This document shows positions 5,228 to 53,069 of a stretch of 64,000 bases of DNA, one piece after another (the first letter of the stretch is position 1; every line of letters starts with the position of its first letter). The translations under genes and the position numbers were made by a program. The notes below the pieces were generated by a model that did not search any database, was not told where the DNA came from, and worked only from the letters and a program-made list of their open reading frames with translations. This DNA is from a virus, in IMG/VR virus record IMGVR_UViG_3300031753_000002, positions 1 through 64,000 of that record; one strand, given 5' to 3'.

Positions 5228-5314
5228 GTTCTGTCCTTTCAATTCGCCGCTATCGGCGACGCCCCCTACATGGCATGGGCGGCGGCCGGGTGCAAATCCA
5301 TTCTGCGGTCTTGG

Positions 5315-6190: not shown

Positions 6191-6464
6191 TGTCAGCCTT
6201 TCTTTGGGTCATATTGCGCGCCCGGTCGCCAGCCGACTCGACCGCGGTCCACATGGCTTTCTTGCCGGCGTCCCTCGGGAGATGGGTTGCGCACGCCGTC
6301 GCGCAAGTGCGCCCGCATGTCTTTTTGCAGGCCGTTGTCGTCATCTCGGTCACGTCTCGGATCATCTTTCATGTCGTCCTCCAAAAAGTCGCCGGGGGAC
6401 AACCACGGGAGGCTCCGCGCTGGTTCGCGATCCTCGGGCTACCAGCCCCCGGCGCCGGCTTGGG

Positions 6465-6719: not shown

Positions 6720-6727
6720 GGGGGACC

Positions 6728-7306
6728 TCATGCCATGTGGAGTTCCATCTTCGCCCGAAGGCGCCGATCCATACGGTCGGCTCCGCCGTAGGGTGTCATG
6801 TCGAGAGTGCTCGGCACATGGCGTATCCGTTCGTCTTCGGCATGCTTGATTTGCGTTTGCATAAATCGGTTGTAGCTGTCAAGACCCGCTTGCCCAAATT
6901 CCAGCTTCACCGCGTATTCCTCCACTGCCGTTGCGACGCCGTGGCAGTGATAGTAGATTTGATCGTCCTTGGCTTTCATACGCAACAAGTGAAGCAGTAT
7001 AACAAGCGCATGGCCTTCGCTCTCTCGAATCGCATCAATCAAGGACTTTTCGACATGCTCATGTAGTTCGAGGAAACGGTTGCAAGTAATCGTGCGGGCG
7101 CGAAATGGCCATCCGGCGAGGTCACGATCAATAAAGATGATCGAACCGTCCTGACTGTAGCCGGCGAGGTAGGGTATATCCCAATCACTCGAATTCAGCG
7201 TATAGGAGCGTTTCATCATCTGCGCTACACTAGGCAGTGCGAGAATTATGTTAGCTTCGGCGATTGTGAATGGGTCTGGGTTATTCGATTTGTCTCCGGT
7301 GCTCAT
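6728..7306 (-). CDS. Hypothetical protein, possibly metal-binding (HExxE...H)
   Basis: DIPYLAGYS...IFIDR...LHEHVEKSL...HCHGVATAVE. Confidence 0.6.
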   Translation of the reverse strand: MSTGDKSNNPDPFTIAEANIILALPSVAQMMKRSYTLNSSDWDIPYLAGYSQDGSIIFIDRDLAGWPFRARTITCNRFLELHEHVEKSLIDAIRESEGHALVILLHLLRMKAKDDQIYYHCHGVATAVEEYAVKLEFGQAGLDSYNRFMQTQIKHAEDERIRHVPSTLDMTPYGGADRMDRRLRAKMELHMA

Positions 7307-7309
7307 GAT

Positions 7310-7680
7310 TTATTCTTCCCTACGGCCGATTGCGACCTGCTGCGTATCGATATTAAGACCCATGTTGTTCTTTTCTTGATTGCGTACAGAGAAACTCTCG
7401 TGGGGGCTTCGCCAGCACGCGGCGAAGCTCGGTTTCAAATAGTGCATCAGGGTCCTTATCGTTCGCCGCGCAGAACAGATAGATCGACATAAGGACTTGC
7501 CCAAGCTCGGTATCCATTGAACCTGTCGGCCGCGCATAGACGGCGTCAACAAGTTTGTGCATTGCGCAAACTCGGTCATTTCCTCGGCGGCGCGCAATGC
7601 ACGCACGGGTACGTTGAGCATGTGCACAATACCAAAGCACCACACCGCCCAATCGAGCGCGAGCCTATGAAGGATCGGAC
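7310..7680 (-). pseudogene. Frameshifted MazG-like (all-alpha NTP-PPase) gene
   Basis: RALRAAEEMTEFAQ in one frame continues as LVDAVYARPTGSMDTELGQVLMSI...ETELRRVL in another; 5' end uncertain. Confidence 0.5.
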
Positions 7681-7934
7681 CTTGGAAGGATTTCTTCAGG
7701 ATAACATTGGATTGCGAGCCATTTGCCCGGTCCTTCGAATGCAACCAAGGTATGAGCGTGAACAGGTTCATTGGTTTCATCTCCAAATACATCAAACAGA
7801 TTCATAACTGGAAGCAAGCGTCCTTCATAATCAAATAGCCATCGGTAATCAGGCGGACAATGCTGTGCGTAATTGCCGGGCGTCTCGACTTGGATAGTCA
7901 AGGTGCAACCTCCCGCGGACCGGTCATCATTCAT
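7665..7934 (-). CDS. Hypothetical protein
   Basis: ATGA-coupled ORF. Confidence 0.45.
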   Translation of the reverse strand: MNDDRSAGGCTLTIQVETPGNYAQHCPPDYRWLFDYEGRLLPVMNLFDVFGDETNEPVHAHTLVAFEGPGKWLAIQCYPEEILPRSDPS

Positions 7935-8122
7935 TTCGCGAATCCCTTTCGAAGCCGCCGTATTTTTCCCGAGATTACATTCTTTGAACACTCAAGTTGA
8001 ATAGCAATTTGCAAAAAACTGTATCCGGCTTGATGCAATGATTTCAACAAAACGAGTTTTTCCTGTGTCCATTCAACTCGGCGGTCATAGGGACTGTAAT
8101 GACGGAAATCATGCAGTCTCAT
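7931..8122 (-). CDS. gcrA: GcrA-like N-terminal HTH domain protein
   Basis: WTQEKLVLLKSLHQAGYSFLQIAIQLECSKNVISGKIRRL matches the GcrA N-terminus (WT.ER...L..LW..G.S..QIA..LG..RNAVIGK..RL). Confidence 0.7.
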   Translation of the reverse strand: MRLHDFRHYSPYDRRVEWTQEKLVLLKSLHQAGYSFLQIAIQLECSKNVISGKIRRLRKGFAK

Positions 8123-8206
8123 TCTTTCCTCCCTCGATCTGTTCTAGAAAGCGATCTTCATTCATCTTATCAGTTTGGATATTAGTTCGCAGCCATTTAC
8201 GCTTTT

Positions 8207-8413
8207 TCATCGGAGTGAAGCATCTCCATTGGTCGATTGAGAGCGGACCTTTTGCGCCGCCGCTAGGGCAGCCCAAGCTTCTAGCCGGCATCTCCCCTTT
8301 ACGCTCACATTCGCGTATATCCAATTTTGAGGATTCCACCATCGCCGTCTCCATCTGTAGATGGCCATTGCCGCTGCTTCTACCTCCAAAAACATCATCT
8401 CGTCTCGTGTCAC
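8207..8413 (-). CDS. Hypothetical protein
   Basis: 68-aa ORF overlapping the upstream stop. Confidence 0.4.
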   Translation of the reverse strand: MTRDEMMFLEVEAAAMAIYRWRRRWWNPQNWIYANVSVKGRCRLEAWAALAAAQKVRSQSTNGDASLR

Positions 8414-8709
8414 GGCACAAACGCCTTTCGCTGTCGTTTGTCATAGACCAGATTTTTCGGATCATGTCCAGTCATTCGTGCAAGTCGGTCCTTGGCGCGT
8501 CCGGCGCGCCCCATAGCCTCGCGTTCGCGGCCATGCGCTGTCAAGTGGCCTTGGGCATCAACCGAGCCCTGTTGCTGCAATATCTCGATCGCAAGTTGAT
8601 GTGCAGCAACCGGCGCATGACCCTTGGCGCGAAGCTGCCCCTCAAGGCTATCCACAAGTCCGTGCGTGAAGCGCCCATGGTCATCGCGGGGCTGATCGGG
8701 ATTTGCCAT
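8410..8709 (-). CDS. Small basic protein with N-terminal PRDDHGRFT motif
   Basis: MANPDQPRDDHGRFTHG; GAGG RBS. Confidence 0.65.
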   Translation of the reverse strand: MANPDQPRDDHGRFTHGLVDSLEGQLRAKGHAPVAAHQLAIEILQQQGSVDAQGHLTAHGREREAMGRAGRAKDRLARMTGHDPKNLVYDKRQRKAFVP

Positions 8710-8896: not shown

Positions 8897-9409
8897 TCAT
8901 ACATCCGTTGCTAGGAGAAGATCGCGCAGACCGCGGCCGGACACCGAATCAGCGAGCGCAGCCTTGCCGTGCTTTAGCAGATAGGCTATGGCCTTTGCAA
9001 GCCTCTCGGGATCATCTCCAAATTGGCCTAAACCTAGGTTGCACTCCGGGCATAGCCAACCCCGGAATTTTCCGGTTGCGTGGTCATGATCCGCGTGAAG
9101 CCGCGCCACCGCCTGCCCGCAACATTCACATTGACCATTTTCAGAAAGCGCTTGATCTAAAGTCAATCCGTATCGATTGCGTCGCTTATAGATGGTCGTT
9201 CGGTGTACTCCCGCCGCATCACATCGTCTCGAAATCTCGCCTTGCACCCGCAAGGGAATTGCGATGGCTTCGGCTACGGAAAGCCCTCGGTCAGTAATTC
9301 GTCGCCAAATCGTTTTTGGGTTGAACCCGGCGGCAATCGCCGCAGCGTGATACCCGCGCGTTCGCGGATCACCACAAAATCGGCCGTTTGCATCGCGTTT
9401 CTTAAACAT
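8897..9409 (-). mobile_element. Endonuclease VII-family homing endonuclease, C-terminally fused to a copy of the helicase C-terminus
   Basis: CECC...HADHDHATGKFRGWLCPECNLGLG...DD...L.KAIAYL; two HTH repeats; last 19 aa identical to the helicase end. Confidence 0.85.
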
Positions 9410-10847
9410 CGGTCGCCAACAATAAGTCTCGTAATCCTCTTCCACTTACACTGTCCGCAAGCGTTGCTTTAGAGTCAACTATGGCCCAATTTCTATCGTC
9501 CACCGTGCCGGGCGTCGTGATTCGTACGATGCTCACTGTCTTGCCGCCCTTCACAGTCGCCCGTTCCTCCGATTGCCTGATTCGAATCGCATCCGGAATT
9601 GATGAAAAGTATATAACCGCATCTGCGGCCGAAAAGTCAAGCCCCTCGCCCCCGGCGCCCGGCTGGCCGACCTGGACTAGCTTACGCGGATTGTTCTGGA
9701 ATGCGAGTCGAGTCGGCTCGCGCTGGTCCTGCGGCACACCGCCATGGTACTCCAAGATGCTGTTCTTGTACCCATGGGATTGCAGGAACAAGACCACGCG
9801 GCGAATATCCTCCCGATAGCGGCACCACACAAGCGACTTGCCGGGAAGCGTCCCGTCTACTTGCTCTTTCAGCGCCCAATAAATCGGTGCGTCCGGGTCC
9901 ACCGTCACGATGCACCCATCCTTCATCATGTAGCCGTTGATGATTTGCTGTAGCTTCTGGACGCGGGCGCCCCCGTCGAGCGCTTCGACCTCGGTGCCCT
10001 CAATCTCGACAAGATGGTGGGAGACCATGGTCAGGTAGGCGCGTCGCTGAACCTCGCTCATGATGACCGGCCGCTCAGTCCGAATCAGCGCCGGCATATC
10101 GTGAAGCTCGCTGCGTAGGACGACAGAAGACCACGGAGCGAGCCGACTGCGCAATTCATCCATGTTTTTGTACTCGGCGAGCTTCCAATAATCCCGCCCG
10201 GAGTTGCGCTTCTGTTTCTCATATGTGGCATAGCGCGCCTGGAATTCGGTAAATGTTCGGAAGCCAAGCGCTTCCTTTTCGAGTAATTCGTATTGTGAAA
10301 AGGCCCTCAGAGGGCTGTTCAGCAATGGCGTTCCACTCTCGATCGTGCAGAATGTGGCGTGACGGGCGAGGCTACGGGCACGGAACGTACGTTTCGCCCC
10401 TGGCCGGCCAAAGTGGTGCGCCTCCGAAACAATCATCATGAACTTGCGATTGCAGGCTTTCAGAAACTCTCGAACGGCCTTTCTATTGTCATGATGTTCC
10501 AAAGCCTCTATATTAATCGCGAACCATTTGAGACCGCGGTGCGCCAGCAATGCACGCCACTTGTCAATCTGTGCGTTGTCGGCGCGGCGCCCTGTTTGCC
10601 ATGCGAAGCCTACGTGGCGCCCGTTCTCAGGCCACGCCCATTTAGGAACCTCATTTTGAATCCAATTGATATGCACGCCGTTCGGGGCGATGATGATGAC
10701 GCCTTCGATCGCGCCCTTACCATGTTGCCAACACGCCTTATCGATGCACGCCTTGCTTTTTCCTGAGCGCATCGGCCATATCAAAGCGCGAGATTTCTTC
10801 TCGCGATGGCGCTTGAATTCACGGGCTTGGTGAGGCCAGTCTTTCAT
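9402..10847 (-). CDS. SNF2-family (SF2) DNA helicase
   Basis: MRSGKS Walker A, SEAHH Walker B variant, SGTP, GGEGLDF, QSEERA. Confidence 0.88.
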   Translation of the reverse strand: MKDWPHQAREFKRHREKKSRALIWPMRSGKSKACIDKACWQHGKGAIEGVIIIAPNGVHINWIQNEVPKWAWPENGRHVGFAWQTGRRADNAQIDKWRALLAHRGLKWFAINIEALEHHDNRKAVREFLKACNRKFMMIVSEAHHFGRPGAKRTFRARSLARHATFCTIESGTPLLNSPLRAFSQYELLEKEALGFRTFTEFQARYATYEKQKRNSGRDYWKLAEYKNMDELRSRLAPWSSVVLRSELHDMPALIRTERPVIMSEVQRRAYLTMVSHHLVEIEGTEVEALDGGARVQKLQQIINGYMMKDGCIVTVDPDAPIYWALKEQVDGTLPGKSLVWCRYREDIRRVVLFLQSHGYKNSILEYHGGVPQDQREPTRLAFQNNPRKLVQVGQPGAGGEGLDFSAADAVIYFSSIPDAIRIRQSEERATVKGGKTVSIVRITTPGTVDDRNWAIVDSKATLADSVSGRGLRDLLLATDV

Positions 10848-14618: not shown

Positions 14619-17600
14619 TTTCGCAACCGGTGCCCTATCCAGCCTTCCGCCGCAATGGGCATCCCAGGCGCCCACCCCACGTCAGCCGCCATCATGGCTT
14701 CGAATTCCTTGACTGTGGCCGTGCCGATGGGGGCCTCGGCTATGACCTCGTCATGTATCGACAAGAGTAAGTCGAAATCGGGTTCCATGTCAACCCGGAA
14801 CATGGCCTCGGCCAATAAATCACGCGAAGACGCCTGATCCGCGTTTTCCACCAAAGTTCCGCCATGCGTGCCGCACCGCTGCCACTGCTTCGTGATGATA
14901 TTGCGGCCCATGAAACTCAGGTGTGGCGAGAGAAAATTCTCAGGTGGGTCCTGCGTCAGCCGCTTGCGCTGCTTATCAGCTAGCTTCTCGGCATGGTAGC
15001 GGGCGCTCGCTGTCGAGACGCCGATCTTCGCCTGGAAATTAACCTTGCACGGCTTGCTGCGCTCATTGATGGCGTTGAAGCGCCATGTGCATCGCGTATG
15101 AACCTCCGGATACAGATAGGCGAGTAATCGACCACTCGGCAGGCGGCAATGCAGGAAAGGGCCGGACACAAAATAGCTGACGGCGCCGATGCCTGTTTCG
15201 TCGCCTCCCGCGTAGCGCTCGCCACCAAGCATCACAGCATCGATCGCCGCGGCGTTGTAGTCTTTCCACAACCTGGGGACCTCGGGGCACTTGTCCTTGC
15301 GATAGACCTTCACGACCATCTGACAGAATTCGTCTTCAAGCCATATGCCTTCTTCTGCCCAAACGGTAGCCTGGAATTTCTCCCATCCCATGGAGTTATG
15401 AACGATCATAGGACCATCACAGGTCAAAATCATATATCGATTCCGTGGCCCTGAATCGATTAAATCATATACTTTTTCCTTTCTGCCGACGCGTATTTCT
15501 ACATTGCTCACTCCGAGTCGTGAAGCGAATATTGCCCGGCTCATAGCCGCAATCATTATCCCTTCGATCCATTTCAAGGTGTGAATCATCCCAACCTGGC
15601 AACGTCCGAATATGTCTGAGAAAAGCGGCTCGATCTTTGTACCAATCCAAGCAGACCTCGATCCCTCGGGCGCCGTAATCTTTGAATTTAGGATTTCGTG
15701 TGTTGTGGCATCGTCCGATTGCCGCGGATAATCGATTAAGGTGTCGTTCTCGGTGCTCACTTTCTGGCATTGCGGCTTTGTATGCCGCATGTCTTCGATC
15801 CGCTGCCGCATGTTTCGAACAGATGTTGCAACGCGTTGAGCGACCGGCGCGCCAATTCGCCAAATCGATTTGATGTTCCGGCGCTCCGCATTTGCACCGC
15901 ACCACGATCCGTTTGACGCCGTTGCGAGGACCGACGATATACCCAACAACGGTAAGGCTTCCTTGCCGGCTGCCAATGCGCGGGAGCGCAAGGTCTCGTT
16001 GGCGACCACTTTCCCGGCATGGTGGAACCGATCCTCGCACCATATGGGATGATCCATCGTCGAGAATGAATCGCCCAAATTCGTCACGGATTTTTCGCCG
16101 TTGCATACAAGTCCTTTATGACTCACCCATTCGATCCCATCCCATAGCATATCTGAATCGGCTTTGTCAATCCGAACCCATCCACGTTTCGTCAAGATAA
16201 GAGTGTCAGCGGCATGGCAATAGCCGAGACCAAGTATGGCTCGCTTGCCTAGAGCGCGCTTATCAGGATGATTGTTCTTGAACCACTTGATTTGCTCTTT
16301 GTCCGTGGCATCGCATTCCATCTTGTAGATGCCGCACGCCATATCGATATACGGGTCGCCGCCAGTTCGGAACAGAAGCAATTGCGATGCGCAACCAGAA
16401 AGCCACGCCAGTTTTCGGGCCTCGATTGCGTTGAAATCGGCGGCATAGAGTTCCTTTCCAGGCGACGCGACCAACGCGCCCCGACACGCCTTGGCAAGCG
16501 CGGGCAACGGCTCACCCCATATGAGCGTGATGTATTCGCGGTCTAACGTGAGAATGTCGTCCCACGCCTTGCACATATCCTTCGAATACCCGCGGACAAA
16601 GTTGTGAGGCTGTACGCCCTTGCCGGACCACCGGCCAGTTCGGTCGGCGCCGTTGTAGAGCATAATGTCGTGAAGGCGCCCGTCCGGGCACATCGATTCG
16701 ACCATCTGCTTATACTTGCTGACTGAGGTCCTGTTGACCTCAAGGCAGATTTCCAGCGCGCGATGCAGCGGCTCGCCGGCTTCGCCGAATTGTTCCCATT
16801 TTGCGTCAGTTGCCGGTCGTGCAGCATCCTTGGCTTCGTCACCGGCCTTCGTCGGCACACCGTATAACTCGAAGCTTAGCGTGTCGGCCTTGGTGTCGAG
16901 AAGCCCGACCGCTCCGGGATTTATCACTTGGATCGTTTCGTTAGCCCACTTTTTGAACACCGCTCGACGCGAACCGCGGTCAACTCGGCCGCCAGTGATT
17001 TCGAAAAGCTCCGAATTGAGCCTGTCAGTTTCGAGGCGGGCAAGTTCCAGCGCCTCTCGCGCCGCGGTTTCGTCGAGTAGGATGCCGCGCTGATTCATGC
17101 GGAAATCCATGCGCCAGTATTCTAGCTCTCTTTCTGTCATTTCGGGGCACCAATTGCTGTACTCGCGTTCGGTGCGCACGTCCTGTTTGCAGTAGTCCCA
17201 ATTGCGGCGATGCTCGATTTCTTCCTCGCAGAAACGAGCTATCTGCGGCTGACCGCGGCGGCGAGGCATCGGCTTACTGAGCTTGTTTATCAGTCGGCGC
17301 CCATCAACGAGCTTCTGGTTATCCAGGCCGATCGCCTTGGCCGCGTCACCGAGCGCGCGAGGCAGAGACATGCACGACCCTTTCGCAGCGGAGCACCGCA
17401 TTTGTTCTAAACGCAACGCCACGCGGAATTCCGGGAACTCGCGTAGGAGCGGGCCATTCCATATCGAGAACTCGAAATAGGAATTGTGAGCTTCGAAAAT
17501 CTCGCCGTCCGCGACGCGTTCGATTAATTCGAGAAAGTCAGGATCATCTTCAGGGGTCTTGTCAATCCAGGGATGACCACGATGCCAAAGTCTAATTCGA

Positions 17601-41447: not shown

Positions 41448-42182
41448 ATGGGTCAGAACCGGCAAGCCAAATATAGACCCGGCTTTGATAAAAGTTCGCA
41501 TGGGCACGTTCGATCTTCGCAGGCTATCATCGGAGTTGACGCCCGCGGTCGGCCAGTAATTCAGAAGCGTCCCGGCGCCCCCACCAAGTACACCCCCGAA
41601 CTATGTCAACGTATTCTAACCGCTATTGAGCGATGGGCAAACGTGACGCATGCGTGCGCCATGAACGGCATCATATATCCGACGTTTCGGCATTGGCTCC
41701 TAAAAAGTAGGAACGGTCGGGTCGGCGACGGATTCGATGTAGAGTTCGATGGCCGCGTTGATAGGCTCCACGTTCATTATGACGATTGCCTGGACGCGTC
41801 AGTGCAGCGAATCGAAGAAAATCTCATGGATCGTGCAATCGGCTGGAAAGAGGTCCTGACGGATAAGGGCCGTGTGCAATACCAGTTCGATGAAGACTTG
41901 CTTAGTCTCGGGTTCACGGGATACGAGGCGTATCTCCGCGATGAAAACGGCAAACCTATTCCCGAGACTGTGGACAAGCAGGACCCCGAGGTCATGCTCA
42001 TGGTTTTGAAACATTTCCGTCCTGAGCGCTGGACGACGAAGATCGATATGGATGTGACGCACAAGGGCGGCGTCCTTGTAGTCGGTGTGAAGGCAACATC
42101 CGAAGAACTGACTGACCTCGCCAAGAAGGCGCGTGACAACCCGGTTGAGATCGAGTTTCGTGAAGACGGGGAGGACGTGTGA
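41448..42182 (+). CDS. terS: Terminase small subunit
   Basis: GAPTKYTPELCQRIL HTH; AGGAGG RBS; directly upstream of terL. Confidence 0.8.
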   Translation: MGQNRQAKYRPGFDKSSHGHVRSSQAIIGVDARGRPVIQKRPGAPTKYTPELCQRILTAIERWANVTHACAMNGIIYPTFRHWLLKSRNGRVGDGFDVEFDGRVDRLHVHYDDCLDASVQRIEENLMDRAIGWKEVLTDKGRVQYQFDEDLLSLGFTGYEAYLRDENGKPIPETVDKQDPEVMLMVLKHFRPERWTTKIDMDVTHKGGVLVVGVKATSEELTDLAKKARDNPVEIEFREDGEDV

Positions 42183-43729
42183 TGCACACCATCCACGCCT
42201 TTCGCAAAGTCGGGAATGAATACATCCCGCTGGTCTATGACGATCATGGCAAGGAAATCGAAGCTGTGTGGGCGCCGCAGCCCGGTTCGCAAGAGCTATT
42301 TCTCAAGGCGTCTGAAATCGAGGTTCTGTACGAAGGAACACGCGGTCCCGGCAAGACCGACGCTCTGATTATGGATTTTTGTCAGGACGTGGGCAAGGGC
42401 TGGGGCGCGGAATGGAAGGGCGTGCTGTTTCGGCAAACGCATCCACAGTTGAGAGACGTGATCGAGAAATCAAAAAAGTGGATCAAACGTATCTGGCCCG
42501 GCGCTTTCTACAACGAGATCAAATTCTTCTGGGAGTGGGAATCGGGCGAACGCTTGTATTTTTCACATTTCAACGTTCCGTCGCAGTATTCCGACTATCA
42601 CGGCCATGCGTACCCGTGGATCGGCTGGGAGGAATTGACAACGTGGCCGAACCCAGACTGCTTCAAAGTCATGTTCGCATGCTCGCGCTCGACGATAGCA
42701 AAGATGCCGAGAAAAGTCCGGGCGACAACGAATCCCTACGGAGTCGGGCATAATTGGGTAAAGTCACGCTACCGACTGCCTGTGCCGCCGGGCGATATCG
42801 TTGGGCCGGTCATTGCTGATAGCATTGACGATCAAGGAAACCCGGAGCCGCCGCGCCGCGCAGTTCACGGCTACCTCGACGAAAATAAAATTCTTGCGCA
42901 TACGGACCCCGGCTACAAAAGTCGGATTCGGGCTGCGGCTCGAAACGAGAGCGAGCTTCGGGCGTGGCTCGACGGATCGTGGGATATCGTCGCAGGCGGC
43001 ATGTTCGACGATATTTGGTATGAATACAGGCACGCAATCGTGGTGCAGCCTTTCGAGGTTCCGCCGGGATGGAAGATCACGCGGGCGTACGATCACGGGT
43101 CTTCGAAGCCGTTTAGCGTCGGCTGGTATGCTGAGAGCGACGGCACTGATTTGGCATTCCCGGATGGTACTGTGCGCGCCACACTCCGCGGCGATATCTT
43201 TCGGATCAAAGAGTGGTACGGCTGGCGCGGGCAACCGAACGAAGGCTCACGCATGTTGGTCCCCGATATCGCCAAGGGTATCGTCGAGCGGGAAATCAAG
43301 TGGGAATGGCGGGCGCCTGATGGTTCATCCAATCGTGTCAAGCGTGGCCCCGCCGACAGTTCGATCTTCGACGATTCGAACGGCATCAGCATCGCCGAAG
43401 ATTTCGAGAAGCCGATCATGTTCAACGGCGTGAAGCACAAGGGCATCGTGTGGGAGAAAGCCGACAAGGGACACGGGTCGCGCGAACAAGGATGGGAGCA
43501 AATCCGAAAGAGGCTCAAGGCCACGAAGCGTCCGCCGGGCGGCTATCGCGAGGTTCCTGGCCTATTCATTACGAAGGATTGCGTCCATTGGCTTCGCACG
43601 GTTCCTACTCTGCCGCGTGATGAAAAGAAGATCGATGATGTTAATGATGAAGCCGAGGATCACACTGGCGACGAAACCCGATATCGATTGCGTTTTGAAA
43701 GTCGCACCGTGACAAGTAGGAGGGCATAA
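42179..43729 (+). CDS. terL: Terminase large subunit
   Basis: WAPQPGSQ, YEGTRGPGKT, GWEEL, ATTNPYG.GH.WVK, AYDHGS, EDH..DETRY. Confidence 0.93.
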   Translation: MMHTIHAFRKVGNEYIPLVYDDHGKEIEAVWAPQPGSQELFLKASEIEVLYEGTRGPGKTDALIMDFCQDVGKGWGAEWKGVLFRQTHPQLRDVIEKSKKWIKRIWPGAFYNEIKFFWEWESGERLYFSHFNVPSQYSDYHGHAYPWIGWEELTTWPNPDCFKVMFACSRSTIAKMPRKVRATTNPYGVGHNWVKSRYRLPVPPGDIVGPVIADSIDDQGNPEPPRRAVHGYLDENKILAHTDPGYKSRIRAAARNESELRAWLDGSWDIVAGGMFDDIWYEYRHAIVVQPFEVPPGWKITRAYDHGSSKPFSVGWYAESDGTDLAFPDGTVRATLRGDIFRIKEWYGWRGQPNEGSRMLVPDIAKGIVEREIKWEWRAPDGSSNRVKRGPADSSIFDDSNGISIAEDFEKPIMFNGVKHKGIVWEKADKGHGSREQGWEQIRKRLKATKRPPGGYREVPGLFITKDCVHWLRTVPTLPRDEKKIDDVNDEAEDHTGDETRYRLRFESRTVTSRRA

Positions 43730-43884
43730 TGGCTGCGTTGTTAGGTTCTGTAGCTCTTACGGGCGCGGAAAAGAGTGCTCGATATGATGTTAAGCATCGT
43801 ATCGAACGCGCCGAAGACGGCACCGCCGAAGAACATGAAGCGATTGCCGCATGGATGAAAGGGTACTCTCATGGCTCTCGATGA
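43729..43884 (+). pseudogene. Internally deleted homing-endonuclease remnant
   Basis: 51-aa ORF coupled to terL; DGTAEEHEAIAAWM resembles an endonuclease C-terminal helix. Confidence 0.45.
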
Positions 43885-45514
43885 TCGTCATCCTGAATAT
43901 GTGCAAAGACTCGGAGAGTGGATACAATGCCGAGATTGCTACGCTGGGGAGCGAGCAATCAAGCGTAAGCGCTTAGATTATCTTCCTCCAAGTGAGGCGA
44001 TGGTGCAAGACGGAATGACTACACCAACATCCCCAGGCTGGAAAGACTATGAAGCATATCTGACCAGAGCTTACTTTCATGACGTTATGCGAGATGCTGT
44101 GAAAGCAATGGTTGGAATTATGCATATGAAACCCGCCGTCATCAAACTGCCGCCGAAGCTTGCCCCAATGGTGGACAAGGCTACGATCCAAGGCGAGGGC
44201 CTGCAAATGCTCATGCGCCGAATCAATGAGGCGCAGCTTGTGTTCGGCCGCTGCGGCTTGCTTGTTGATGCGCCAACCGGAGTGGACCCCTACAAGGCGC
44301 TTCCCTACATCGCGTTTTACGAACCCGAGCGCATCATCAATTGGGATGCCGGCCGACGCGACGAAGGCCGCAATTTGCTTGAACTTGTCGTGCTCGACGA
44401 AAGTGGGTTTCAGCGCGAGGGCTTCACATGGGTCAACGAGCGCAAACATCGCGTCCTGACGCGCGGCATTCCTGGTTCTCTCGAAAGTGGATGGACCCGC
44501 CCAGAACCTACCGACAAGTTCGCATTGTGCGTCAAAGTCAACGATATGTCGATGCCGATTCCCGACGATTTCATCGTGCCATCGATAGGCGGCCGGCCGA
44601 TGGATGAAATCCCATTCGTCTTCATCGGCGCGACCGATCTTGTGCCTGAGCCGGACCTGCCGCCCTTGCTTGGACTCAGCAATCTCGCGCTTGCGATCTA
44701 CCGCGGCGAAGCCGATTATCGGCAGACGCTTTTCATGCAAGGACAGAGCACTCTCGTTATCATCGGCGGCGCCGCCGACGATGACGACAAGCAGCTTCGC
44801 GTCGGCGCGAAGGGCCTCATTTCCCTCCGCATCGGGGGCGACGCCAAATACATCGGCGTCCCTGCCGCTGGCCTCGGTGAAATGCGGACCTCGCTCAAGA
44901 CTGATCAAGAGAACGCAGCTATGATGGGCGTTGCATTCATGGACGTGGGCAACGCTCGTGGCGAGTCAGGCGAGGCGCTGCGTATCCGCGTCGCTGCACG
45001 CACGACAACGATTTCCGCCATCGCTCAAGCGGCTGGCGCCGGTTTGGAGCAAGTTCTCAAGCTGTGCGCCATATGGGTCGGCGAAGACCCGGACACCGTG
45101 AGCGTGACGCCGCAGACCGATTTCGCGGACCAGAACGTCGCGGGTGCGAGCCTGTTGGCCTTCATGCAAGCGAAGCAACTCGGCTTGCCGCTCAGTCTCA
45201 AGAGCTTGCATCGCATGATGCATCTCAACGACATGACTGAGATGGATTTCGACACCGAGAACCAACAGATCGAAGAAGAAGCCGAGAGCTTGATCGGCAC
45301 AATGGTTCACGGCGCCGCGTTCGGCGTGACCGACGAAACCTTCCTCGATACCCAACAGGGAAGCGGAGCGGACCCGGTAGACCCCGAAGATGCTGCCGCG
45401 ACCATTCCGCCTATCCCGCCGAATCAAAACGTTCCGATCAAGCCGCACACACGCGGCTCGCCCGTTCCGCTCAAACGCAAGGTAGGCAAGAAGGGCGCGT
45501 CCAATGGTAAATGA
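43871..45514 (+). CDS. Portal protein (DUF4055-type)
   Basis: HPEY...W...RD.YAGE..IK...YLP...Y..YL.RA; GRCGLLVD; IPFVF; PPLL.L..L.L; ESGEALRIR. Confidence 0.88.
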   Translation: MALDDRHPEYVQRLGEWIQCRDCYAGERAIKRKRLDYLPPSEAMVQDGMTTPTSPGWKDYEAYLTRAYFHDVMRDAVKAMVGIMHMKPAVIKLPPKLAPMVDKATIQGEGLQMLMRRINEAQLVFGRCGLLVDAPTGVDPYKALPYIAFYEPERIINWDAGRRDEGRNLLELVVLDESGFQREGFTWVNERKHRVLTRGIPGSLESGWTRPEPTDKFALCVKVNDMSMPIPDDFIVPSIGGRPMDEIPFVFIGATDLVPEPDLPPLLGLSNLALAIYRGEADYRQTLFMQGQSTLVIIGGAADDDDKQLRVGAKGLISLRIGGDAKYIGVPAAGLGEMRTSLKTDQENAAMMGVAFMDVGNARGESGEALRIRVAARTTTISAIAQAAGAGLEQVLKLCAIWVGEDPDTVSVTPQTDFADQNVAGASLLAFMQAKQLGLPLSLKSLHRMMHLNDMTEMDFDTENQQIEEEAESLIGTMVHGAAFGVTDETFLDTQQGSGADPVDPEDAAATIPPIPPNQNVPIKPHTRGSPVPLKRKVGKKGASNGK

Positions 45515-45746
45515 GCGAGCGCGTCGGGTCTCGGTTTGGAATGCAGTCATCGCCATCATTGACCAAACCGAGCTTGAAATGCGCGATATCATAGAGCGAG
45601 AGTTCGTCAACACCGCGGGCCTGGACGGGCTTCGGCTCGGCGAGGCCATGACGGCAGCGAACCGCGCCATGAAGCAAATCACGCCGTTGCGCGTTCGGGC
45701 AATCAAGCGCGCGTTCCGATTGATCCGTGACAAGGGCATGGCATGA
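45504..45746 (+). CDS. Hypothetical protein (possible minor head protein fragment)
   Basis: Overlaps the portal stop; helical. Confidence 0.5.
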   Translation: MVNERARRVSVWNAVIAIIDQTELEMRDIIEREFVNTAGLDGLRLGEAMTAANRAMKQITPLRVRAIKRAFRLIRDKGMA

Positions 45747-46627
45747 CCTTCGACCCGAACGAAGCACGTGACTATCACGGCCGCTGGACGGCTGGGAGCG
45801 GGAGCGTGGCGGAAGCACAGGCGCAGGCCATGAAGATTGCCGGCGGGCGCCAGCCGCTCGCCGGACTGCTGCAGAAGCCTATCAAGCTCGGCGACGAATG
45901 GTATGTGCCCGGCCCGAACGCGCGTATCGCCGACGCGGCTGAAGCGTACATGAAGGCCGCGGGCCTGCCGTATGATCCGCCAAAGACTTACCAGAAGGTT
46001 GACTCCGAGCGCGCCACGAAGATCGCGCAAGCCTTTGAAGACATGAAGCATGATCCGAACGACCCGGCCGTCAAGGCATCTTATGAAGCGATGGCGCGTG
46101 AAACCCTCGCCCAATGGCAGGCGCTCAAGGCGACTGGCCTTCAAGTCGAGTGGATCAAGCCCGGCCAGCCGGACCCCTATGCAGACAGTCCACGTCGCGC
46201 CGCGATGGATATGAGTCTGCATAATCATTGGTGGGGCTTTCCGACCGACATGGGCTTTGGCACTGGACCCGAAGCCGAGAAGGCCATGAAGGATAACCCG
46301 TTACTCGCGCCGACCAATGAGGTTGTAGGTGGGCGCCACTTGGTCGTCAACGATGTGTTCCGAATCGTGCATGACCAGTTCGGGCATTTCAAAGAGGGCA
46401 ATGGCTTCCGGGCGGACGGCGAGGAAAACGCGTGGCGCTCGCACGTGGCGATGTATTCGCCGCTTGCCCGCGGCGCGATGACCTCCGAAACTCGGGGGCA
46501 AAATTCGTGGGTAAATTTTGGGCCGTATGGGGCGGCGAACAAGCACGCGAGCGCGGCCGATACTCACTACGCCGATCAAAAGGTCGGTCTCATGCCGGAA
46601 TGGACCCGGACTGAGGGTGCGAAATGA
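45743..46627 (+). CDS. RDxHGRWT-tagged protein with an HDxxGH metallo-domain
   Basis: MTFDPNEARDYHGRWT; NDVFRIVHDQFGH...GF...GEENAW..H..M. Confidence 0.75.
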   Translation: MTFDPNEARDYHGRWTAGSGSVAEAQAQAMKIAGGRQPLAGLLQKPIKLGDEWYVPGPNARIADAAEAYMKAAGLPYDPPKTYQKVDSERATKIAQAFEDMKHDPNDPAVKASYEAMARETLAQWQALKATGLQVEWIKPGQPDPYADSPRRAAMDMSLHNHWWGFPTDMGFGTGPEAEKAMKDNPLLAPTNEVVGGRHLVVNDVFRIVHDQFGHFKEGNGFRADGEENAWRSHVAMYSPLARGAMTSETRGQNSWVNFGPYGAANKHASAADTHYADQKVGLMPEWTRTEGAK

Positions 46628-47541
46628 ATGATGTGACAACCGAACCGCGTGACGAACACGGTCGCTGGACCTCTGGCAGCGGGAGTACCAAGCCGAGCGA
46701 CAAGCTTTGGGCGACGCTTCACGGCGATCCTAATGGGCCGTTCGTGAGTCTCGCAGACCCGGAGAGTAACGCCGCGCATGCGAGAGCCATTTCTGACATT
46801 GCCGGGAGTGTCGCCAAAGAGCTTGGGTTCAATCCATCTAAGATCAACATCACGGATGGCGAGCATAAGTTCACAGTCAACGGGAAAGACATGACGGCGG
46901 CGGGCCTCGCGCATCGGGAAACAGGATTGATAACGCTCTACACGAAGCAGCTTACCGAGTCCTTCACTCCTGGCGCCACGGCGCACGAAATCATGCATCA
47001 AAAATGGAACGCATACCTCGAAGATTATCGAGCGGAGGCGGCCAAAGTCATGACGGACCCGGATGGTGCAAACTCACCGTACCGCGGGCCAGATGCCTTC
47101 ATGAAGGCTGACGGAACCCTTGGCGAAAAGTACGCCGCTCGGTATCCGATCTATCAAGAATACACGAAGCTCATGATGAATTCGGAGAAGATGCGCGCCG
47201 AGGATGGGGTATCCGATTACAGCCGGGAATATTGGAATGCCGTCAACAGCGGCGAAGCTAACCGTGTCAAGGGCACGTACATCAACTCGCAAGGCAATGT
47301 GCAAGAATACACGACAAGCCGCATCACTCTCGACCAGTGCTACCATGAGACGCTCGCAGAGATGGCGAGGCTCGACTATGAGAATAAGAAGGCCAAGGAA
47401 AAGGGCAGCGCGATCTTCAATCCAGTTGCCCCGCCGGCCCGGCTGAAAAGCGGCAAGGCTTCGACGGCTCGGAGGTCGAAGGATTGGGAGGCTTTGTACG
47501 AAGCGATCAACCGCAACTGGGATAAGCGGAGCAAAGCATGA
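46624..47541 (+). CDS. RDxHGRWT-tagged zincin-like metallopeptidase
   Basis: EPRDEHGRWT; AHEIMH; GVSDYS..YW; HETLAE. Confidence 0.75.
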   Translation: MNDVTTEPRDEHGRWTSGSGSTKPSDKLWATLHGDPNGPFVSLADPESNAAHARAISDIAGSVAKELGFNPSKINITDGEHKFTVNGKDMTAAGLAHRETGLITLYTKQLTESFTPGATAHEIMHQKWNAYLEDYRAEAAKVMTDPDGANSPYRGPDAFMKADGTLGEKYAARYPIYQEYTKLMMNSEKMRAEDGVSDYSREYWNAVNSGEANRVKGTYINSQGNVQEYTTSRITLDQCYHETLAEMARLDYENKKAKEKGSAIFNPVAPPARLKSGKASTARRSKDWEALYEAINRNWDKRSKA

Positions 47542-48020
47542 TCGAGCGACAGACCATCAACGGTCGCCCCGCGACCGTCGCCTACATGACAGCCGATTTC
47601 GTGCCGGCCGACAAAGACACCGCGCCGTATGCGAAAGTGCTGTTCGATGACGGTGAGATGCTATTGCTCGCGAGCGGGAACGCTGATGACGGCGCCGAGG
47701 AAGCCGCCGCGTGGAATCGGCACCGCATGCAACAACAGAAGCCATATGGGCAGCCGCCGCGAAAAACCTTGCTGGGGTACAGCCTTGCGAGATGGGCAGC
47801 TTTTTTCGCCAAGACCGACATAGCCCGGATTGACAACGCGATCAAAACAGGACTTATCGCTGGCCTAGACAACACTGAAATCGCCCGCCGCGTCATTGGC
47901 AGTATCGGACTACGCGGTATTGATGGCGTAACGGAGGTTACTAGGCGCCGCATAGCTGAATTAGGGCGTCTTGCTCTCAAAGAACGTAAAGGACGTGGAG
48001 TGCCTTATGTCACTAAATGA
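47538..48020 (+). CDS. Protein with a MuF/minor-head-like C-terminal segment
   Basis: RIDNAIKTGLIAGLDNTEIARRVIG...G.DG; portal-scaffold position. Confidence 0.55.
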   Translation: MIERQTINGRPATVAYMTADFVPADKDTAPYAKVLFDDGEMLLLASGNADDGAEEAAAWNRHRMQQQKPYGQPPRKTLLGYSLARWAAFFAKTDIARIDNAIKTGLIAGLDNTEIARRVIGSIGLRGIDGVTEVTRRRIAELGRLALKERKGRGVPYVTK

Positions 48021-48734: not shown

Positions 48735-49592
48735 ATGCCTAAGCTCAAGACCATCTATGAGAAAGAGGAAGACGTTCCCGAAGGTTTCGGCGAGTTGTAC
48801 GTCGAGCGCAACGGGAAATGGGAGTTGACCGGAGTCGAAGGCGTGAAGACGCAGGCTGATATCGACCGGGTGAATGAAGCCCTCCGCAAGGAAAAGGCCG
48901 ACCACAAAGCGCTCAAGGAAAAACACGTCAAAGTAGCTGATCTTGACCCCGAAAAGGTCGCTGAACAGGCTGCCGAACTTGAAGCTGCGCAAGCACAGCT
49001 TGCCGCATTCACGAAGGATGGCAATCTTGACGAAACGAAACTTGAGCCGATCATTGAGGCGCGAATCAAGCGCGCCCTCGGGCCGATCGAGCGCGACAAG
49101 GCCGCGCTTGAACGCAAGCTCGCCGATGAAGCCAAGGCTAAGGAACTGGCACTCGGCGAGGTCGTGTCCCTGAAAACTAGCATCACGCAGCGCACGATCG
49201 AGAACGCGCTTCGCGATGCCGCAACCGCCGGCAAGGTCCTGATCACCGCGGTTGACGATGCCGTATCCATCGGTTCCCGGTATTTCGAGACAACCGAAGA
49301 CGGCCGCGTGTTGACTCGTGACAACATGGGAATCACGCCGGGCTTGAAACCGACCGAGTGGCTCAAGGACATGCAAGAGCACAAGCCGCATTGGTGGCCT
49401 GCTTCTCAGGGCGGTGGTTCGCGCGGCGGTTCTGGCGGCACTGGCGGCCGGGCCGACAATCCGTGGATGCCTGAGAATTGGAACGTCACCAAGCAGGGCG
49501 CCTATATCCAGCAACACGGCATTGAGAAAGCCGCGCAAGCGGCTGCGACCGCTGGCAGTAAGGTTGGCGCCACTAAGCCGAAAGCTGCGTAA
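48735..49592 (+). CDS. Capsid scaffolding protein
   Basis: LY.E.NGKW.L..VEG, coiled coil, PHWWPASQGGG, C-terminal NPW....WN.T.QG. Confidence 0.82.
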   Translation: MPKLKTIYEKEEDVPEGFGELYVERNGKWELTGVEGVKTQADIDRVNEALRKEKADHKALKEKHVKVADLDPEKVAEQAAELEAAQAQLAAFTKDGNLDETKLEPIIEARIKRALGPIERDKAALERKLADEAKAKELALGEVVSLKTSITQRTIENALRDAATAGKVLITAVDDAVSIGSRYFETTEDGRVLTRDNMGITPGLKPTEWLKDMQEHKPHWWPASQGGGSRGGSGGTGGRADNPWMPENWNVTKQGAYIQQHGIEKAAQAAATAGSKVGATKPKAA

Positions 49593-51929: not shown

Positions 51930-53069
51930 ATGACAAACGTTTCGACGCAAATCGCGGATGTGATCGTCCCCGCAATTTTCACTCCCTACACACAGCAATT
52001 GACGATGGAGAAGACCGCCATCGTTCAGTCCGGAATCGCGGCTCGGGATGACTTTCTCGACAACCTGCTTGCCGGCGGCGGTCTGACGTTCACCGTTCCG
52101 TCCTGGCAGGATATCGGGGACCCCGCCGAGAACATTTCGAGCGATGACCCGAACACCAATTCTCAGCCGAACATCACGCAAACCTCCGCCGAGGTCGCGG
52201 TCCGGCTGTCCCGCAACAGTTCGTGGAGCACCATGCGGCTCGCAACAGCCCTGGCCGGCGCCGACCCGATGCAGAGCATCGCCTCGCGCGTTTCCGACTA
52301 TTGGGTCCGTCGTCTTCAGCGCGCGTTTGTCGCCGTCGCTCAGGGCGTGTTCACGACCAACGCCGCGGCCAACGCGGGCGCGACTCCGGGCCTGGGCCTC
52401 ACCGCTCAGTACGGCACGCAGAATGACCTGACGAACGACATTTCGGCCGGCGGGTACTCCAGCGGCGTCACCGACTTTTCCGCCTCCGCGTTTATCGACG
52501 CATGCACTCTGTTGGGCGATGCGGCCGAAGACGTGACTGCCGTCTTCATGCACTCGATCGTGTATGCGAAGGCGCAGAAGAACAACCTCATTGACTTTAT
52601 TCCGGACGCTGAAGGCCACATCAACATCCCGACTTTCTTGGGTCGGCGCGTGATCGTTGACGACGGCATGCCGAATCCGTCCGGCGACAACAGCAACGGC
52701 GCTGCCACCGCCTCGGGTGTCTATCACACTTGGCTTGTTGGCCCCGCCAGCTTCCGACTTGGTGTCGGCACCCCCGTCGTCCCGACCGAGGTCTTCCGTT
52801 ACCCGGATCGAGGCAACGGCGCCGGCTCCGATATCCTGTACAACCGCGTCGAATGGTGCATCCATCCGGTCGGCCATGCGTACAGCGGTTCGACCGCAAG
52901 TAAGGGCGGACCGTCCAACAACACTCTCTCGGCAAACGGCGCCTTCGTGCGTGTGTTCCCCGAGCGCAAGCAGATCAAGCTCGCTCGCCTGATCACCGCC
53001 GAAAGCATCGCGACTCCGGGTCCGTATCGCGCTGATCCGTTCGTGAGCGGCGGCAACGCGGAGGTCTGA
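51930..53069 (+). CDS. Major capsid protein
   Basis: T.IADVIVP.IFTPY...QSGI...GG.TF.VP.W...LAGADPM..IA.RV..YW...FMHS.VY...IPTFLGRRVIVDD...HP.G; strongly biased codon usage. Confidence 0.9.
   Translation: MTNVSTQIADVIVPAIFTPYTQQLTMEKTAIVQSGIAARDDFLDNLLAGGGLTFTVPSWQDIGDPAENISSDDPNTNSQPNITQTSAEVAVRLSRNSSWSTMRLATALAGADPMQSIASRVSDYWVRRLQRAFVAVAQGVFTTNAAANAGATPGLGLTAQYGTQNDLTNDISAGGYSSGVTDFSASAFIDACTLLGDAAEDVTAVFMHSIVYAKAQKNNLIDFIPDAEGHINIPTFLGRRVIVDDGMPNPSGDNSNGAATASGVYHTWLVGPASFRLGVGTPVVPTEVFRYPDRGNGAGSDILYNRVEWCIHPVGHAYSGSTASKGGPSNNTLSANGAFVRVFPERKQIKLARLITAESIATPGPYRADPFVSGGNAEV

What the first reader, a model, noticed from the sequence alone, without database searches (positions are those of the whole stretch)
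45743..47541. Second tag family 'RDxHGR[WF]T' on enzyme-like cargos in the MuF slot, plus a distant copy
Seen: FDPNEARDYHGRWT (45743), TTEPRDEHGRWT (46624) and NPDQPRDDHGRFT (8709, minus strand, replication arm) head three unrelated proteins: an HDxxGH domain, an HExxH zincin-like domain and a small basic protein. The core [KR]-D-x-x-G-[HR] is shared with the KDAKGH tag. Known: the portal-scaffold slot commonly holds MuF minor head proteins, some carrying toxin or enzyme domains delivered with the DNA. Inference: here the MuF locus is split into separately tagged effectors, and both tag types may use related binding sites.
Basis: partly seen in the sequence, partly recalled or inferred. Interest (0 to 1): 0.78.

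Follow-up and report, generated by a model that had tools for sequence, protein, structure and literature searches.

The report
Portable peptide tag on phage cargo
Three unrelated proteins of this uncultured phage begin with the same short peptide, a widespread tag I could not find described, which elsewhere sits between the head portal (or other head-interior proteins) and toxin or enzyme modules, so it probably labels proteins carried inside the virus particle.

Summary
ORF A (45743-46627), ORF B (46624-47541) and a 99-aa protein (8410-8709, minus strand) each start with [FY/N]-[DN]-P-x-[EQ]-x-R-D-x-H-G-R-[WF]-T. None of 300 shuffles of the window gave one copy.

The peptide is one instance of a widespread motif of about 16-20 residues followed by a Gly/Ala/Ser-rich spacer. 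I found it in at least 119 viral contigs. It mostly lies inside long proteins, between a portal, MuF, DUF7178 or head-protease domain and ADP-ribosyltransferase, Zeta, topoisomerase IB, nuclease or peptidase modules.

In relatives of this phage, every variable gene in the post-portal slot starts with it. It is kept at residues 2-3 in most of 120 ORF A homologues. It also occurs in chromosomal toxin-immunity loci of Alphaproteobacteria.

ORF B is a lethal-factor-like zincin. ORF A is a polyvalent-protein domain with no fold match in PDB.

Most likely it is an address tag for head cargo, here on separate genes in a phage where I detected no head protease. Packaging is not shown. Kinship with the KDAKGHGS tag is not supported. 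This scan met the same tag before in other genomes.

The parts
45743..46627 (+). ORF A, 294 aa: N-terminal tag, Ala/Gly/Ser spacer, then a polyvalent-protein-associated domain with invariant H162, H210-D211, G214 and H234
45749..45790 (+). Tag of ORF A (residues 3-16, F-D-P-N-E-A-R-D-Y-H-G-R-W-T)
   Evidence: pLDDT 52-67. R9 and G13 are nearly invariant in 75 homologues.
46624..47541 (+). ORF B, 305 aa: N-terminal tag, Ser/Gly spacer, then a lethal-factor-like zincin metallopeptidase domain (HEIMH 121-125, HETLAE 241-246)
46636..46671 (+). Tag of ORF B (residues 5-16, T-T-E-P-R-D-E-H-G-R-W-T). The upstream half is degenerate here.
   Evidence: pLDDT 56-62.
8410..8709 (-). 99-aa basic helical protein with the tag at its N-terminus, in the replication arm beside the helicase and an inserted endonuclease VII gene
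8665..8703 (-). Tag of the 99-aa protein (residues 3-15, N-P-D-Q-P-R-D-D-H-G-R-F-T)
   Evidence: Kept in 17 of 18 homologues.
43871..45514 (+). Portal protein (DUF4055 / phrog_145). It defines the slot.
45504..45746 (+). Untagged 80-aa ORF conserved in relatives. Its stop overlaps the ORF A start (ATGA).
47538..48020 (+). ORF C, 160 aa, untagged. It gives a weak match to the N-terminal part of head-morphogenesis (MuF-type) proteins and has an ATGA overlap with ORF B.
48735..49592 (+). Scaffolding protein (phrog_206). It closes the slot.

Best explanation
The RDxHGR[WF]T peptide is the core of a portable address tag. It is about 16 residues long (aromatic-[DNS]-P-x-[EQ]-x-R-D-x-H-G-R-[WF]-T), probably forms a small beta-hairpin, and is followed by a flexible Gly/Ala/Ser-rich spacer. 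The tag marks enzyme and toxin modules that travel with the interior of tailed-phage heads.

In many phages the tagged modules are strung onto the portal, MuF, DUF7178 or head protease-scaffold protein. In this phage I detected no head protease or MuF core, and the same kind of module is encoded as a separate, translationally coupled gene whose product begins with the tag. There are two such genes after the portal gene and one elsewhere.

Inferred mechanism: the tag, at or near a free N-terminus, docks non-covalently to a conserved head-interior partner (portal, scaffold or the inner capsid surface) while the procapsid assembles. The zincin ORF B, the unknown-function enzyme ORF A and the small basic protein would then be enclosed and later leave with the DNA.

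Shown: the motif, its spread, its position, its modular context, and the fact that it is not part of the cargo folds. Inferred: docking, the partner, packaging and ejection.
For: 1. The motif is real and extends beyond the search pattern. In 114 distinct viral contexts, positions the DNA pattern does not fix are conserved: -6 F/Y 71%, -5 D/S/N 73%, -2 E/Q 87%, -1 P 50%, and +9 to +12 Gly-rich. By subtraction, 110 of 131 viral pattern hits carry this extension, against 22 of 121 hits in prokaryote genomes.

2. The context is the head interior.
- Of 82 upstream segments: Phage_Mu_F 5, Phage_portal 4, Portal_Mu 2, Phage_portal_3 1, DUF7178 4, Peptidase_S78 1.
- Of 111 downstream segments: ADPrib_exo_Tox 6, Zeta_toxin 4, Topoisom_I 2, Tox-REase-5 2, GNAT 2, plus NUDIX, ATLF and M23 once each.
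- Of 10 full ORFs: 4 are portal-tag-cargo (cargo named in 3: topoisomerase IB, ATLF zincin, M23), 3 are DUF7178-tag-cargo, 1 is S78-tag-cargo and 2 are unassigned.

3. In 10 loci from relatives (portal 61-77% identical in the seven that hold a portal match), the variable genes right after the portal or in the slot are five different cargo types. Each starts with the tag at residue 8-11. The conserved small ORF, ORF C and a membrane protein lack it.

4. There is purifying selection at the N-terminus.
- 106 of the 120 best ORF A homologues have a tag within the first 120 residues. The aromatic residue is at position 3 in 76 and at position 2 in 12.
- At least 27 of 32 ORF B homologues (by eye) and 17 of 18 homologues of the 99-aa protein have it.

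5. It is not part of the folds. pLDDT is 52-67 against over 90 for the domains, and the spacer is 18-62 residues.

6. The complete genome has no match to Peptidase_S78, S78_2, CLP_protease or S49. Three ATGA start/stop overlaps link the genes.

7. A cultured example exists. Mycobacterium phage Konstantine gp15 lies between portal and MuF/scaffold and starts with the tag, followed by a very basic protein.
Against: - No proteomic or structural data show that any tagged protein is in a virion. No partner is identified.
- In portal-, MuF- and protease-fused forms a docking tag should not be needed, yet it is conserved there. That fits a processing or release role at least as well.
- The 99-aa tagged protein sits in the replication module, next to the helicase, in this phage and in a relative. 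That is not where virion proteins are usually encoded.
- The 22 extended-motif hits in prokaryote genomes lie in 21 loci. Their 149 neighbouring ORFs are mostly housekeeping genes, with Phage_portal in only 2. The tag there joins a conserved N-domain of about 120 aa to CDI_toxin_EC869_like or Tox-REase-5 toxins, with Imm52 nearby. The motif is therefore not confined to phage heads.
- The prediction that internal tags go with a head protease was not borne out. Among records at least 90% complete, 5 of 9 with clearly internal tags have S78 or S78_2 and 4 have none of the four families. Of 10 N-terminal or ambiguous records, 5 have one (I classified them by eye).
Confidence: 0.45

Rival explanations
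1. Processing or release site. The motif, or a cut site just before it, marks where polyprotein-like head proteins are cleaved into free modules. The N-terminal copies on separate genes would then be inherited junctions with little function of their own.
For: - 80 of 122 distinct extended-motif occurrences are internal.
- Several copies occur per protein or locus: L107 has 3, L113 has 3, L016 has 2.
- In internal copies, Lys (36%) or Ala (18%) directly precedes the aromatic residue and Leu is enriched at -9.
- A portal-fused cargo must be freed in order to leave the capsid.
- Iyer et al. 2017 propose peptidase processing of polyvalent proteins (PMC5512222, passages seen).
- Earlier follow-ups of this scan read cut sites before the same tag.
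Against: - The tag is held at a fixed place two or three residues from the start in most of 120 ORF A homologues and in two other families. A cut there would remove almost nothing.
- This complete genome has none of four head-protease families.
- 4 of 9 complete records with internal tags also lack them.
- ORF B-like zincins are rare next to tags. ATLF is found in 1 of 111 downstream segments, and ORF B is present in only 1 of the 10 related loci.
Confidence: 0.22
2. General pre-toxin boundary motif of polymorphic toxins. It demarcates the constant trafficking part from exchangeable C-terminal modules, and is kept because it eases module swapping or translocation of the toxin. It would have no specific link to capsid loading.
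For: - In chromosomal alphaproteobacterial loci, a conserved N-domain of about 120 aa is followed by the tag and then a variable toxin: CDI_toxin_EC869_like in 2 and Tox-REase-5 in 1 of 10 ORFs scanned. Imm52 occurs in 2 of 149 neighbouring ORFs, among housekeeping genes.
- Cargo downstream of the tag is highly diverse.
- The slot content differs among close relatives, and L048 has a truncated tag-only ORF.
Against: - DNA of the ORF A and ORF B tags is no more alike than the peptide and codon bias require, and the conserved stretch is only about 40 bases.
- The motif is conserved at the protein level with varied codons.
- The link to portal, MuF, DUF7178 or protease upstream is strong in viral contigs.
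- The 99-aa protein has no constant part or toxin module.
Confidence: 0.15
3. A small nucleic-acid- or host-factor-binding hairpin that acts in the infected cell. It would tether effectors and a replication-module protein to DNA or to a host hub protein, and would not act during assembly.
For: - The core is rich in Arg, His and Trp. Both models place residues 9 and 15 in a beta-bridge around the H-G turn.
- A tagged protein sits in the replication module.
- Two homing-endonuclease-like ORFs in the window start with a shorter RDxxGRF peptide.
- The motif occurs outside prophages.
Against: - No direct evidence supports it.
- The acidic upstream half (D/N-P-x-E/Q) is not typical of DNA-binding arms.
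- The endonuclease peptides lack the extended motif.
- No solved structure carries the motif (0 PDB hits at E up to 10).
Confidence: 0.1

Closest known systems
Capsid targeting sequence (CTS) of phage T4 internal proteins
   Same: A short conserved N-terminal peptide is the only thing shared by a diverse set of small, often basic, anti-defence proteins, and it directs them into the prohead core. Foreign proteins can be loaded with it (PMC3012670, passages seen).
   Different: - The T4 CTS is confined to T4-like phages and is removed by the T4 prohead protease (recalled, not checked here).
- The present tag is spread over phages with at least four portal families.
- It is also found inside fused proteins and in chromosomal toxins.
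- This phage has no detectable head protease.
- I did not compare the sequence with the T4 CTS.
Phage-type polyvalent proteins (Iyer, Burroughs, Anand, de Souza, Aravind 2017, PMC5512222)
   Same: The domain repertoire is the same: ART, Zeta, zincin peptidase and LPD-type domains, with MuF association and a late-gene context. ORF A is such a domain. The tag sits at their domain joints.
   Different: - Here each module is a separate single-domain gene.
- A term search of the paper found no 'linker', 'GRW' or 'GRF'; its 'cleav'/'proteoly'/'processed' passages concern peptidase processing. I saw only those passages and not its supplements.
- Three polyvalent proteins that carry the ORF A domain have no tag at all.
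MuF polymorphic toxins of temperate phages (Jamet et al. 2017, PMC5576092)
   Same: There is a head-protein N-terminal part and a variable C-terminal toxin. Phage_Mu_F lies upstream of the tag in 5 of 82 segments.
   Different: - This genome has no MuF core domain.
- The paper's main text has no hit for 'conserved motif', 'pre-toxin', 'linker', 'junction', 'cleav' or 'demarcat'.
Pre-toxin boundary motifs of polymorphic toxins (for example VENN of CdiA) and cargo-loading peptides of encapsulins (both recalled, not checked here)
   Same: In both, a short conserved peptide with a flexible linker marks where an exchangeable module begins (pre-toxin motifs) or addresses unrelated enzymes to the inside of an HK97-fold shell (encapsulins).
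   Different: The sequence motif, placement and systems are different. No membership is claimed.

Membership tests
Phage-type polyvalent proteins (Iyer et al. 2017) | Two to fifteen effector domains in one polypeptide | tested here: not met
   ORF A and ORF B are single-domain proteins of 294 and 305 aa with their own start and stop codons. Relatives do have two-domain forms, an ART-like domain plus ORF A.
Phage-type polyvalent proteins (Iyer et al. 2017) | Domains drawn from the polyvalent repertoire and encoded among late or virion genes | tested here: met
   The ORF A domain lies inside proteins annotated as large polyvalent protein, ART-PolyVal-like and head-morphogenesis-domain proteins. 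The genes lie between portal and scaffold.
MuF / Phage_Mu_F (PF04233) | Match to the MuF core domain | tested here: not met
   The complete 86,784-bp record gives 0 matches at E up to 1. ORF C matches only positions 138-199 of 679 of phrog_241.
T4-type capsid targeting sequence | Short conserved N-terminal peptide shared by otherwise unrelated proteins | tested here: met
T4-type capsid targeting sequence | Removal by the prohead protease, and incorporation through the scaffolding core | not testable with these tools
   No S78, S78_2, ClpP or S49 protease is found in the genome. I did not search the T4-type protease family. There are no proteomic data.
Zincin metallopeptidases (ORF B) | HExxH plus a downstream Glu ligand on a later helix | tested here: met
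   H121, E122 and H125, and H241-E242-T243-L244-A245-E246, are invariant or nearly so in 32 sequences.
Zincin metallopeptidases (ORF B) | Zincin fold | tested here: met
   The model has pLDDT 91. The best match is the anthrax lethal factor catalytic domain, 1yqy_A, with Z 9.1, rmsd 5.5 and 181 residues aligned. Most of the other 25 chains with Z of 5 or more are zincin peptidases. Foldseek alone gave no E of 0.001 or better.
Pfam ATLF / MPTase-PolyVal (ORF B) | Match to the family profile | tested here: inconclusive
   ORF B has no Pfam family at E up to 0.1.
Polymorphic toxin systems | Constant N-terminal part, boundary motif, variable C-terminal toxin and an adjacent immunity gene | tested here: inconclusive
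   This is seen in chromosomal alphaproteobacterial loci that carry the same tag. In the window no immunity gene was identified, and neither cargo is shown to be toxic.

The most novel reading that the evidence does not exclude
A single short address peptide, conserved across tailed phages with unrelated portal families, acts as a near-universal 'load me into the head and send me with the DNA' label. Any protein that begins with it, whether by its own start codon or after a cut, is carried in the virion. The same label has been borrowed by chromosomal toxin systems. It would be a pan-phage counterpart of the T4 capsid targeting sequence, and a ready-made handle for finding, and for experimentally loading, injected phage proteins.
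Probability: 0.35. Interest if true: 0.85.

Novelty: new variant of a known kind. Interest (0 to 1): 0.72.

Why it matters
Proteins injected with phage DNA, such as anti-defence enzymes and toxins, are hard to recognise from sequence. If this tag marks them, one short motif would pick out the injected arsenal of many uncultured phages. Those phages have different portal types, and the list would include folds with no known relative such as ORF A.

The tag would also explain how protease-less phages load cargo that other phages fuse to portal or MuF. It gives a simple experimental handle: tag-reporter fusions, and a cultured carrier in Mycobacterium phage Konstantine.

Its presence in chromosomal toxin-immunity loci also raises the question of how those toxins are delivered.

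Tried and rejected
Tests that were negative, inconclusive or could not be run:
- Kinship of the two tags. A profile of 115 RD-tag segments against a profile of the 6 KDAKGHGS starts gave hhalign probability 0.3% with 1 aligned column. Rejected as homology. Short profiles have little power.
- Solved structure of the motif. The profile search of PDB sequences gave 0 hits at E up to 10.
- A Pfam model that covers the tag. None of 115 tag segments matched a shared family. There were 4 single hits at E 0.08-0.17. No family is shared by more than 6 of 111 or 5 of 82 flanking segments.
- Literature. Full-text searches for HGRW, HGRWT, RDxHGRW, RDxxGRW, RDxxGRF and PRDxxGR and for ESKHPR, EHPRD, KHPRD, HPRDxxG, HPRxxxG and EEKHPR returned only unrelated papers. 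I saw only passages of PMC5512222, only term counts (all zero) for PMC5576092 and only passages of PMC3012670. Supplements were not opened and may hold alignments that show the motif.
- Plasmids. tblastn with ORF B residues 1-40 found one chance-level hit (E 2, in metF). This is a weak test.
- Tag in polyvalent proteins that carry the ORF A domain. None was found in 7 CDS of L001-L003.
- ORF A function. Pfam gave nothing, and phrog_3170 has unknown function. The protein atlas gave only viral hypothetical clusters at 0.82-0.84. Foldseek PDB gave no E below 0.2. It listed weak rows for SidE-family phosphodiesterases, which VIA-align did not support: 1 of 48,161 chains reached Z 2 or more, and that was an unrelated foldase. 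I dropped the SidE lead.
- Head protease against tag position. This was inconclusive. I dropped L064 and L108 from the count because their hits lack the extended motif. I did not search the T4-type protease family.
- Recombination handle. The DNA alignment of the three tags showed nothing beyond what the peptide requires.
I used the search for related loci instead and obtained one locus.
Full report
WHAT IS IN THE WINDOW

The window is the first 64,000 bases of a complete 86,784-bp virus record with direct terminal repeats. Its head module reads as follows:
- large terminase, 42179-43729
- portal, 43871-45514 (DUF4055, phrog_145)
- an 80-aa ORF, 45504-45746
- ORF A, 45743-46627
- ORF B, 46624-47541
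- ORF C, 47538-48020
- a small membrane protein
- scaffold, 48735-49592 (phrog_206)
- a glycosyltransferase
- the major capsid protein, 51930-53069

The 80-aa ORF, ORF A, ORF B and ORF C are chained by three ATGA start/stop overlaps.

ORF A and ORF B begin M-T-F-D-P-N-E-A-R-D-Y-H-G-R-W-T and M-N-D-V-T-T-E-P-R-D-E-H-G-R-W-T. Each is followed by a Ser/Gly stretch. A third protein of 99 aa (8410-8709, minus strand) begins M-A-N-P-D-Q-P-R-D-D-H-G-R-F-T. These are the only three strict copies in the whole genome. None of 300 composition-preserving resamplings of the window produced even one copy.

These held 131 occurrences, 124 of them in open frames of 120 codons or more, in 114 distinct contexts. 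Positions that the pattern does not fix are conserved:
- aromatic at -6: 71%
- D/S/N at -5: 73%
- P at -4: 46%
- D/E/N at -3: 70%
- E/Q at -2: 87%
- P at -1: 50%
- Gly-rich at +9 to +12

The same pattern in one genome per prokaryote species gave 121 occurrences. Only 22 carry this extension, and the rest are chance matches in GC-rich DNA. By subtraction, 110 of 131 viral hits carry it. The extension is therefore what separates real copies from noise. Looser variants grade into W-[ED]-E-S-K-H-P-R-G-x(3-5)-G-Q-F within a single protein family.

WHERE IT SITS

Of 122 distinct extended copies, 80 are internal, 9 are clearly N-terminal and 33 are ambiguous.

Within 330 residues upstream, Pfam finds Phage_Mu_F (5 of 82), portal families (Phage_portal 4, Portal_Mu 2, Phage_portal_3 1), DUF7178 (4), a head protease (1) and toxin domains.

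Downstream it finds ADP-ribosyltransferases (6 of 111), Zeta toxin (4), topoisomerase IB (2), Tox-REase-5 (2), GNAT (2), and NUDIX, ATLF zincin and M23 peptidase.

I scanned ten full ORFs. The results were:
- portal-tag-topoisomerase IB (L004)
- portal-tag-ATLF zincin (L023; the portal match is below Pfam's cut-off)
- Mu-type portal-tag-unknown (L059)
- portal-tag-M23 (L061)
- S78 protease-tag-unknown (L081)
- three DUF7178-tag-cargo proteins
- two with no family

The tag is therefore a joint between a head-interior anchor and exchangeable enzyme or toxin modules. That is the architecture of phage polyvalent proteins and MuF toxins. No Pfam model covers the tag itself, no PDB chain carries it, and I found no paper that names it.

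RELATIVES OF THIS PHAGE USE IT AT N-TERMINI

Ten of the fetched loci belong to relatives; the seven that hold a portal match are 61-77% identical to the window's portal. In them the genes directly after the portal or elsewhere in the slot differ:
- an 804-, 1044-, 875- or 752-aa protein
- ORF A alone
- an ART-PolyVal-like domain plus ORF A
- an ORF B homologue

Each begins with the tag at residue 8-11. The 80-aa ORF, ORF C and the membrane protein never carry it.

Across databases:
- 106 of the 120 best ORF A homologues (55-86% identical) have the tag. The aromatic residue is at position 3 in 76 and at position 2 in 12. R9 and G13 are nearly invariant.
- At least 27 of 32 ORF B homologues (by eye) have it.
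- 17 of 18 homologues of the 99-aa protein have it.

The spacer between the tag and the ORF A domain varies from 18 to 62 residues and is Ala/Pro/Gly-rich. In AlphaFold models of ORF A (mean pLDDT 89.5) and ORF B (91.2), the first 20 residues score 52-67. Both models show a single beta-bridge between residues 9 and 15. The tag is a separate, flexible N-terminal element.

THE CARGOS

ORF B has invariant HEIMH and HETLAE. Its model matches the catalytic domain of anthrax lethal factor best (Z 9.1, 181 residues), followed by many other zincins.

ORF A has invariant H162, H210-D211, G214 and H234. It belongs to a family of over 1,000 proteins in the stand-alone size range searched. Its domain also lies inside proteins named large polyvalent protein, ART-PolyVal-like protein or head-morphogenesis-domain protein. 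Against solved structures it has essentially no match: 1 of 48,161 chains reaches Z 2 or more, and Foldseek E is 0.2 or worse. Its activity is unknown.

The 99-aa protein is a small basic helical protein. In this phage and in one relative it lies in the replication module beside the helicase.

HOW IT MOST LIKELY WORKS

The tag is the only thing the cargos share. It is held at a fixed place at the N-terminus in three unrelated families. It is tied to head-interior proteins in other phages. This complete genome lacks a MuF core and four families of head protease.

The reading that fits best is an address tag that docks cargo to a head-interior partner during procapsid assembly. It would be analogous to the T4 capsid targeting sequence (PMC3012670). 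Under this reading the phage encodes as separate genes what others fuse. I put this at about 0.45.

The main rival is that the motif marks processing sites of polyprotein-like head proteins. Earlier follow-ups of this scan on other genomes read a protease cut site just before the same tag. If that is right, cut products and separately encoded products would both begin with the tag, and the two ideas merge.

My own test of the link was inconclusive. Among records at least 90% complete, 5 of 9 with clearly internal tags have S78 or S78_2 and 4 have none of the four families. Of 10 N-terminal or ambiguous records, 5 have one. The Lys that precedes the aromatic residue in 36% of internal copies is only suggestive.

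RESULTS AGAINST A PURE HEAD-LOADING READING

In alphaproteobacterial chromosomes the tag joins a conserved N-domain of about 120 residues to CDI_toxin_EC869_like or Tox-REase-5 toxins. Imm52 lies nearby, and the surrounding genes are mostly housekeeping genes. One tagged protein of this phage is encoded in the replication arm. Fused forms should not need a docking tag. No partner is known, and nothing shows that any tagged protein is in a particle.

THE SECOND TAG

The KDAKGHGS starts (35.8-40.0 kb) do not resemble the RD tag in a profile-profile comparison (probability 0.3%). They do co-occur with it. Of 248 held loci, 7 carry KD..GHGS. Six are relatives whose fetched locus reaches upstream of the terminase gene. 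The seventh, from a 197-kb phage, has three internal KD..GHGS copies in two ORFs, upstream of an ORF with an ORF A-like domain and an internal RD tag. The two tags look analogous in use but are not demonstrably related.

NOVELTY

The kind of thing is known: a targeting or junction peptide on head-borne effectors. This particular motif appears undescribed in the papers and libraries I could search, given its breadth across portal families and its stand-alone N-terminal use in a phage with no detected head protease. The scan has met the same tag before in at least four other genomes. A cultured carrier, Mycobacterium phage Konstantine gp15, which is annotated as a head maturation protease but is in sequence a tag followed by a very basic low-complexity protein, makes the model directly testable.

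Noticed in passing
window 45743-46627 (ORF A): The AlphaFold model is confident (pLDDT 89.5, pTM 0.88) but has essentially no match among 48,161 PDB representatives (one chain at Z 2.2). The domain is common in phage polyvalent proteins and has invariant His, Asp and Arg residues. It may be an undescribed enzyme fold. In relatives it follows an ART-PolyVal-like domain.
   Followed up: partly
L131, L133, L145, L149, L154, L160, L161, L167, L174, L191, L213, L245 (genome contigs): Alphaproteobacterial chromosomes (Nitrospirillum, Azospirillum, Roseiarcus and several MAGs) encode a toxin family. It has a conserved N-domain of about 120 aa, the same tag, and then variable C-termini (CDI_toxin_EC869_like, Tox-REase-5, an HExxGH module). 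Imm52 lies nearby and there are no evident phage genes. The delivery route is unknown.
   Followed up: partly
L090 (197-kb viral contig), + coordinates about 4758-8303 and 1741-4044: The KDAKGHGS peptide, which is N-terminal in the window, occurs three times inside two ORFs, each time preceded by K-A. They lie upstream of an ORF with an ORF A-like domain and an internal RD tag. Both tags can therefore be junction elements.
   Followed up: partly
window 8897-9445 (-) and about 15465-16114 (-): An endonuclease VII-like ORF and a phrog_93 endonuclease-like ORF each start with a shorter R-D-x-x-G-R-F peptide that lacks the upstream half of the tag. It is unclear whether this is related to the tag or is a separate DNA-binding arm.
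   Followed up: partly
L246 4995-5768 (Mycobacterium phage Konstantine gp15) and L247 5007-5717 (Nocardia phage P3.1): Both genes are annotated as capsid or head maturation protease. In sequence they are the tag followed by a very basic, low-complexity protein with no protease signature that I could see, so the annotation looks doubtful.
   Followed up: partly
L048 about 7455-7620: In one relative the gene after the portal is reduced to the tag plus about 45 residues. This looks like a remnant of the large tagged protein found at that place in L071, L007 and L114.
   Followed up: no
L114 8322-8834: A 170-aa ORF is wedged between the portal and the tagged cargo gene of a relative. Its start resembles GIY-YIG homing endonucleases by eye only; I did not scan it.
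   Followed up: no
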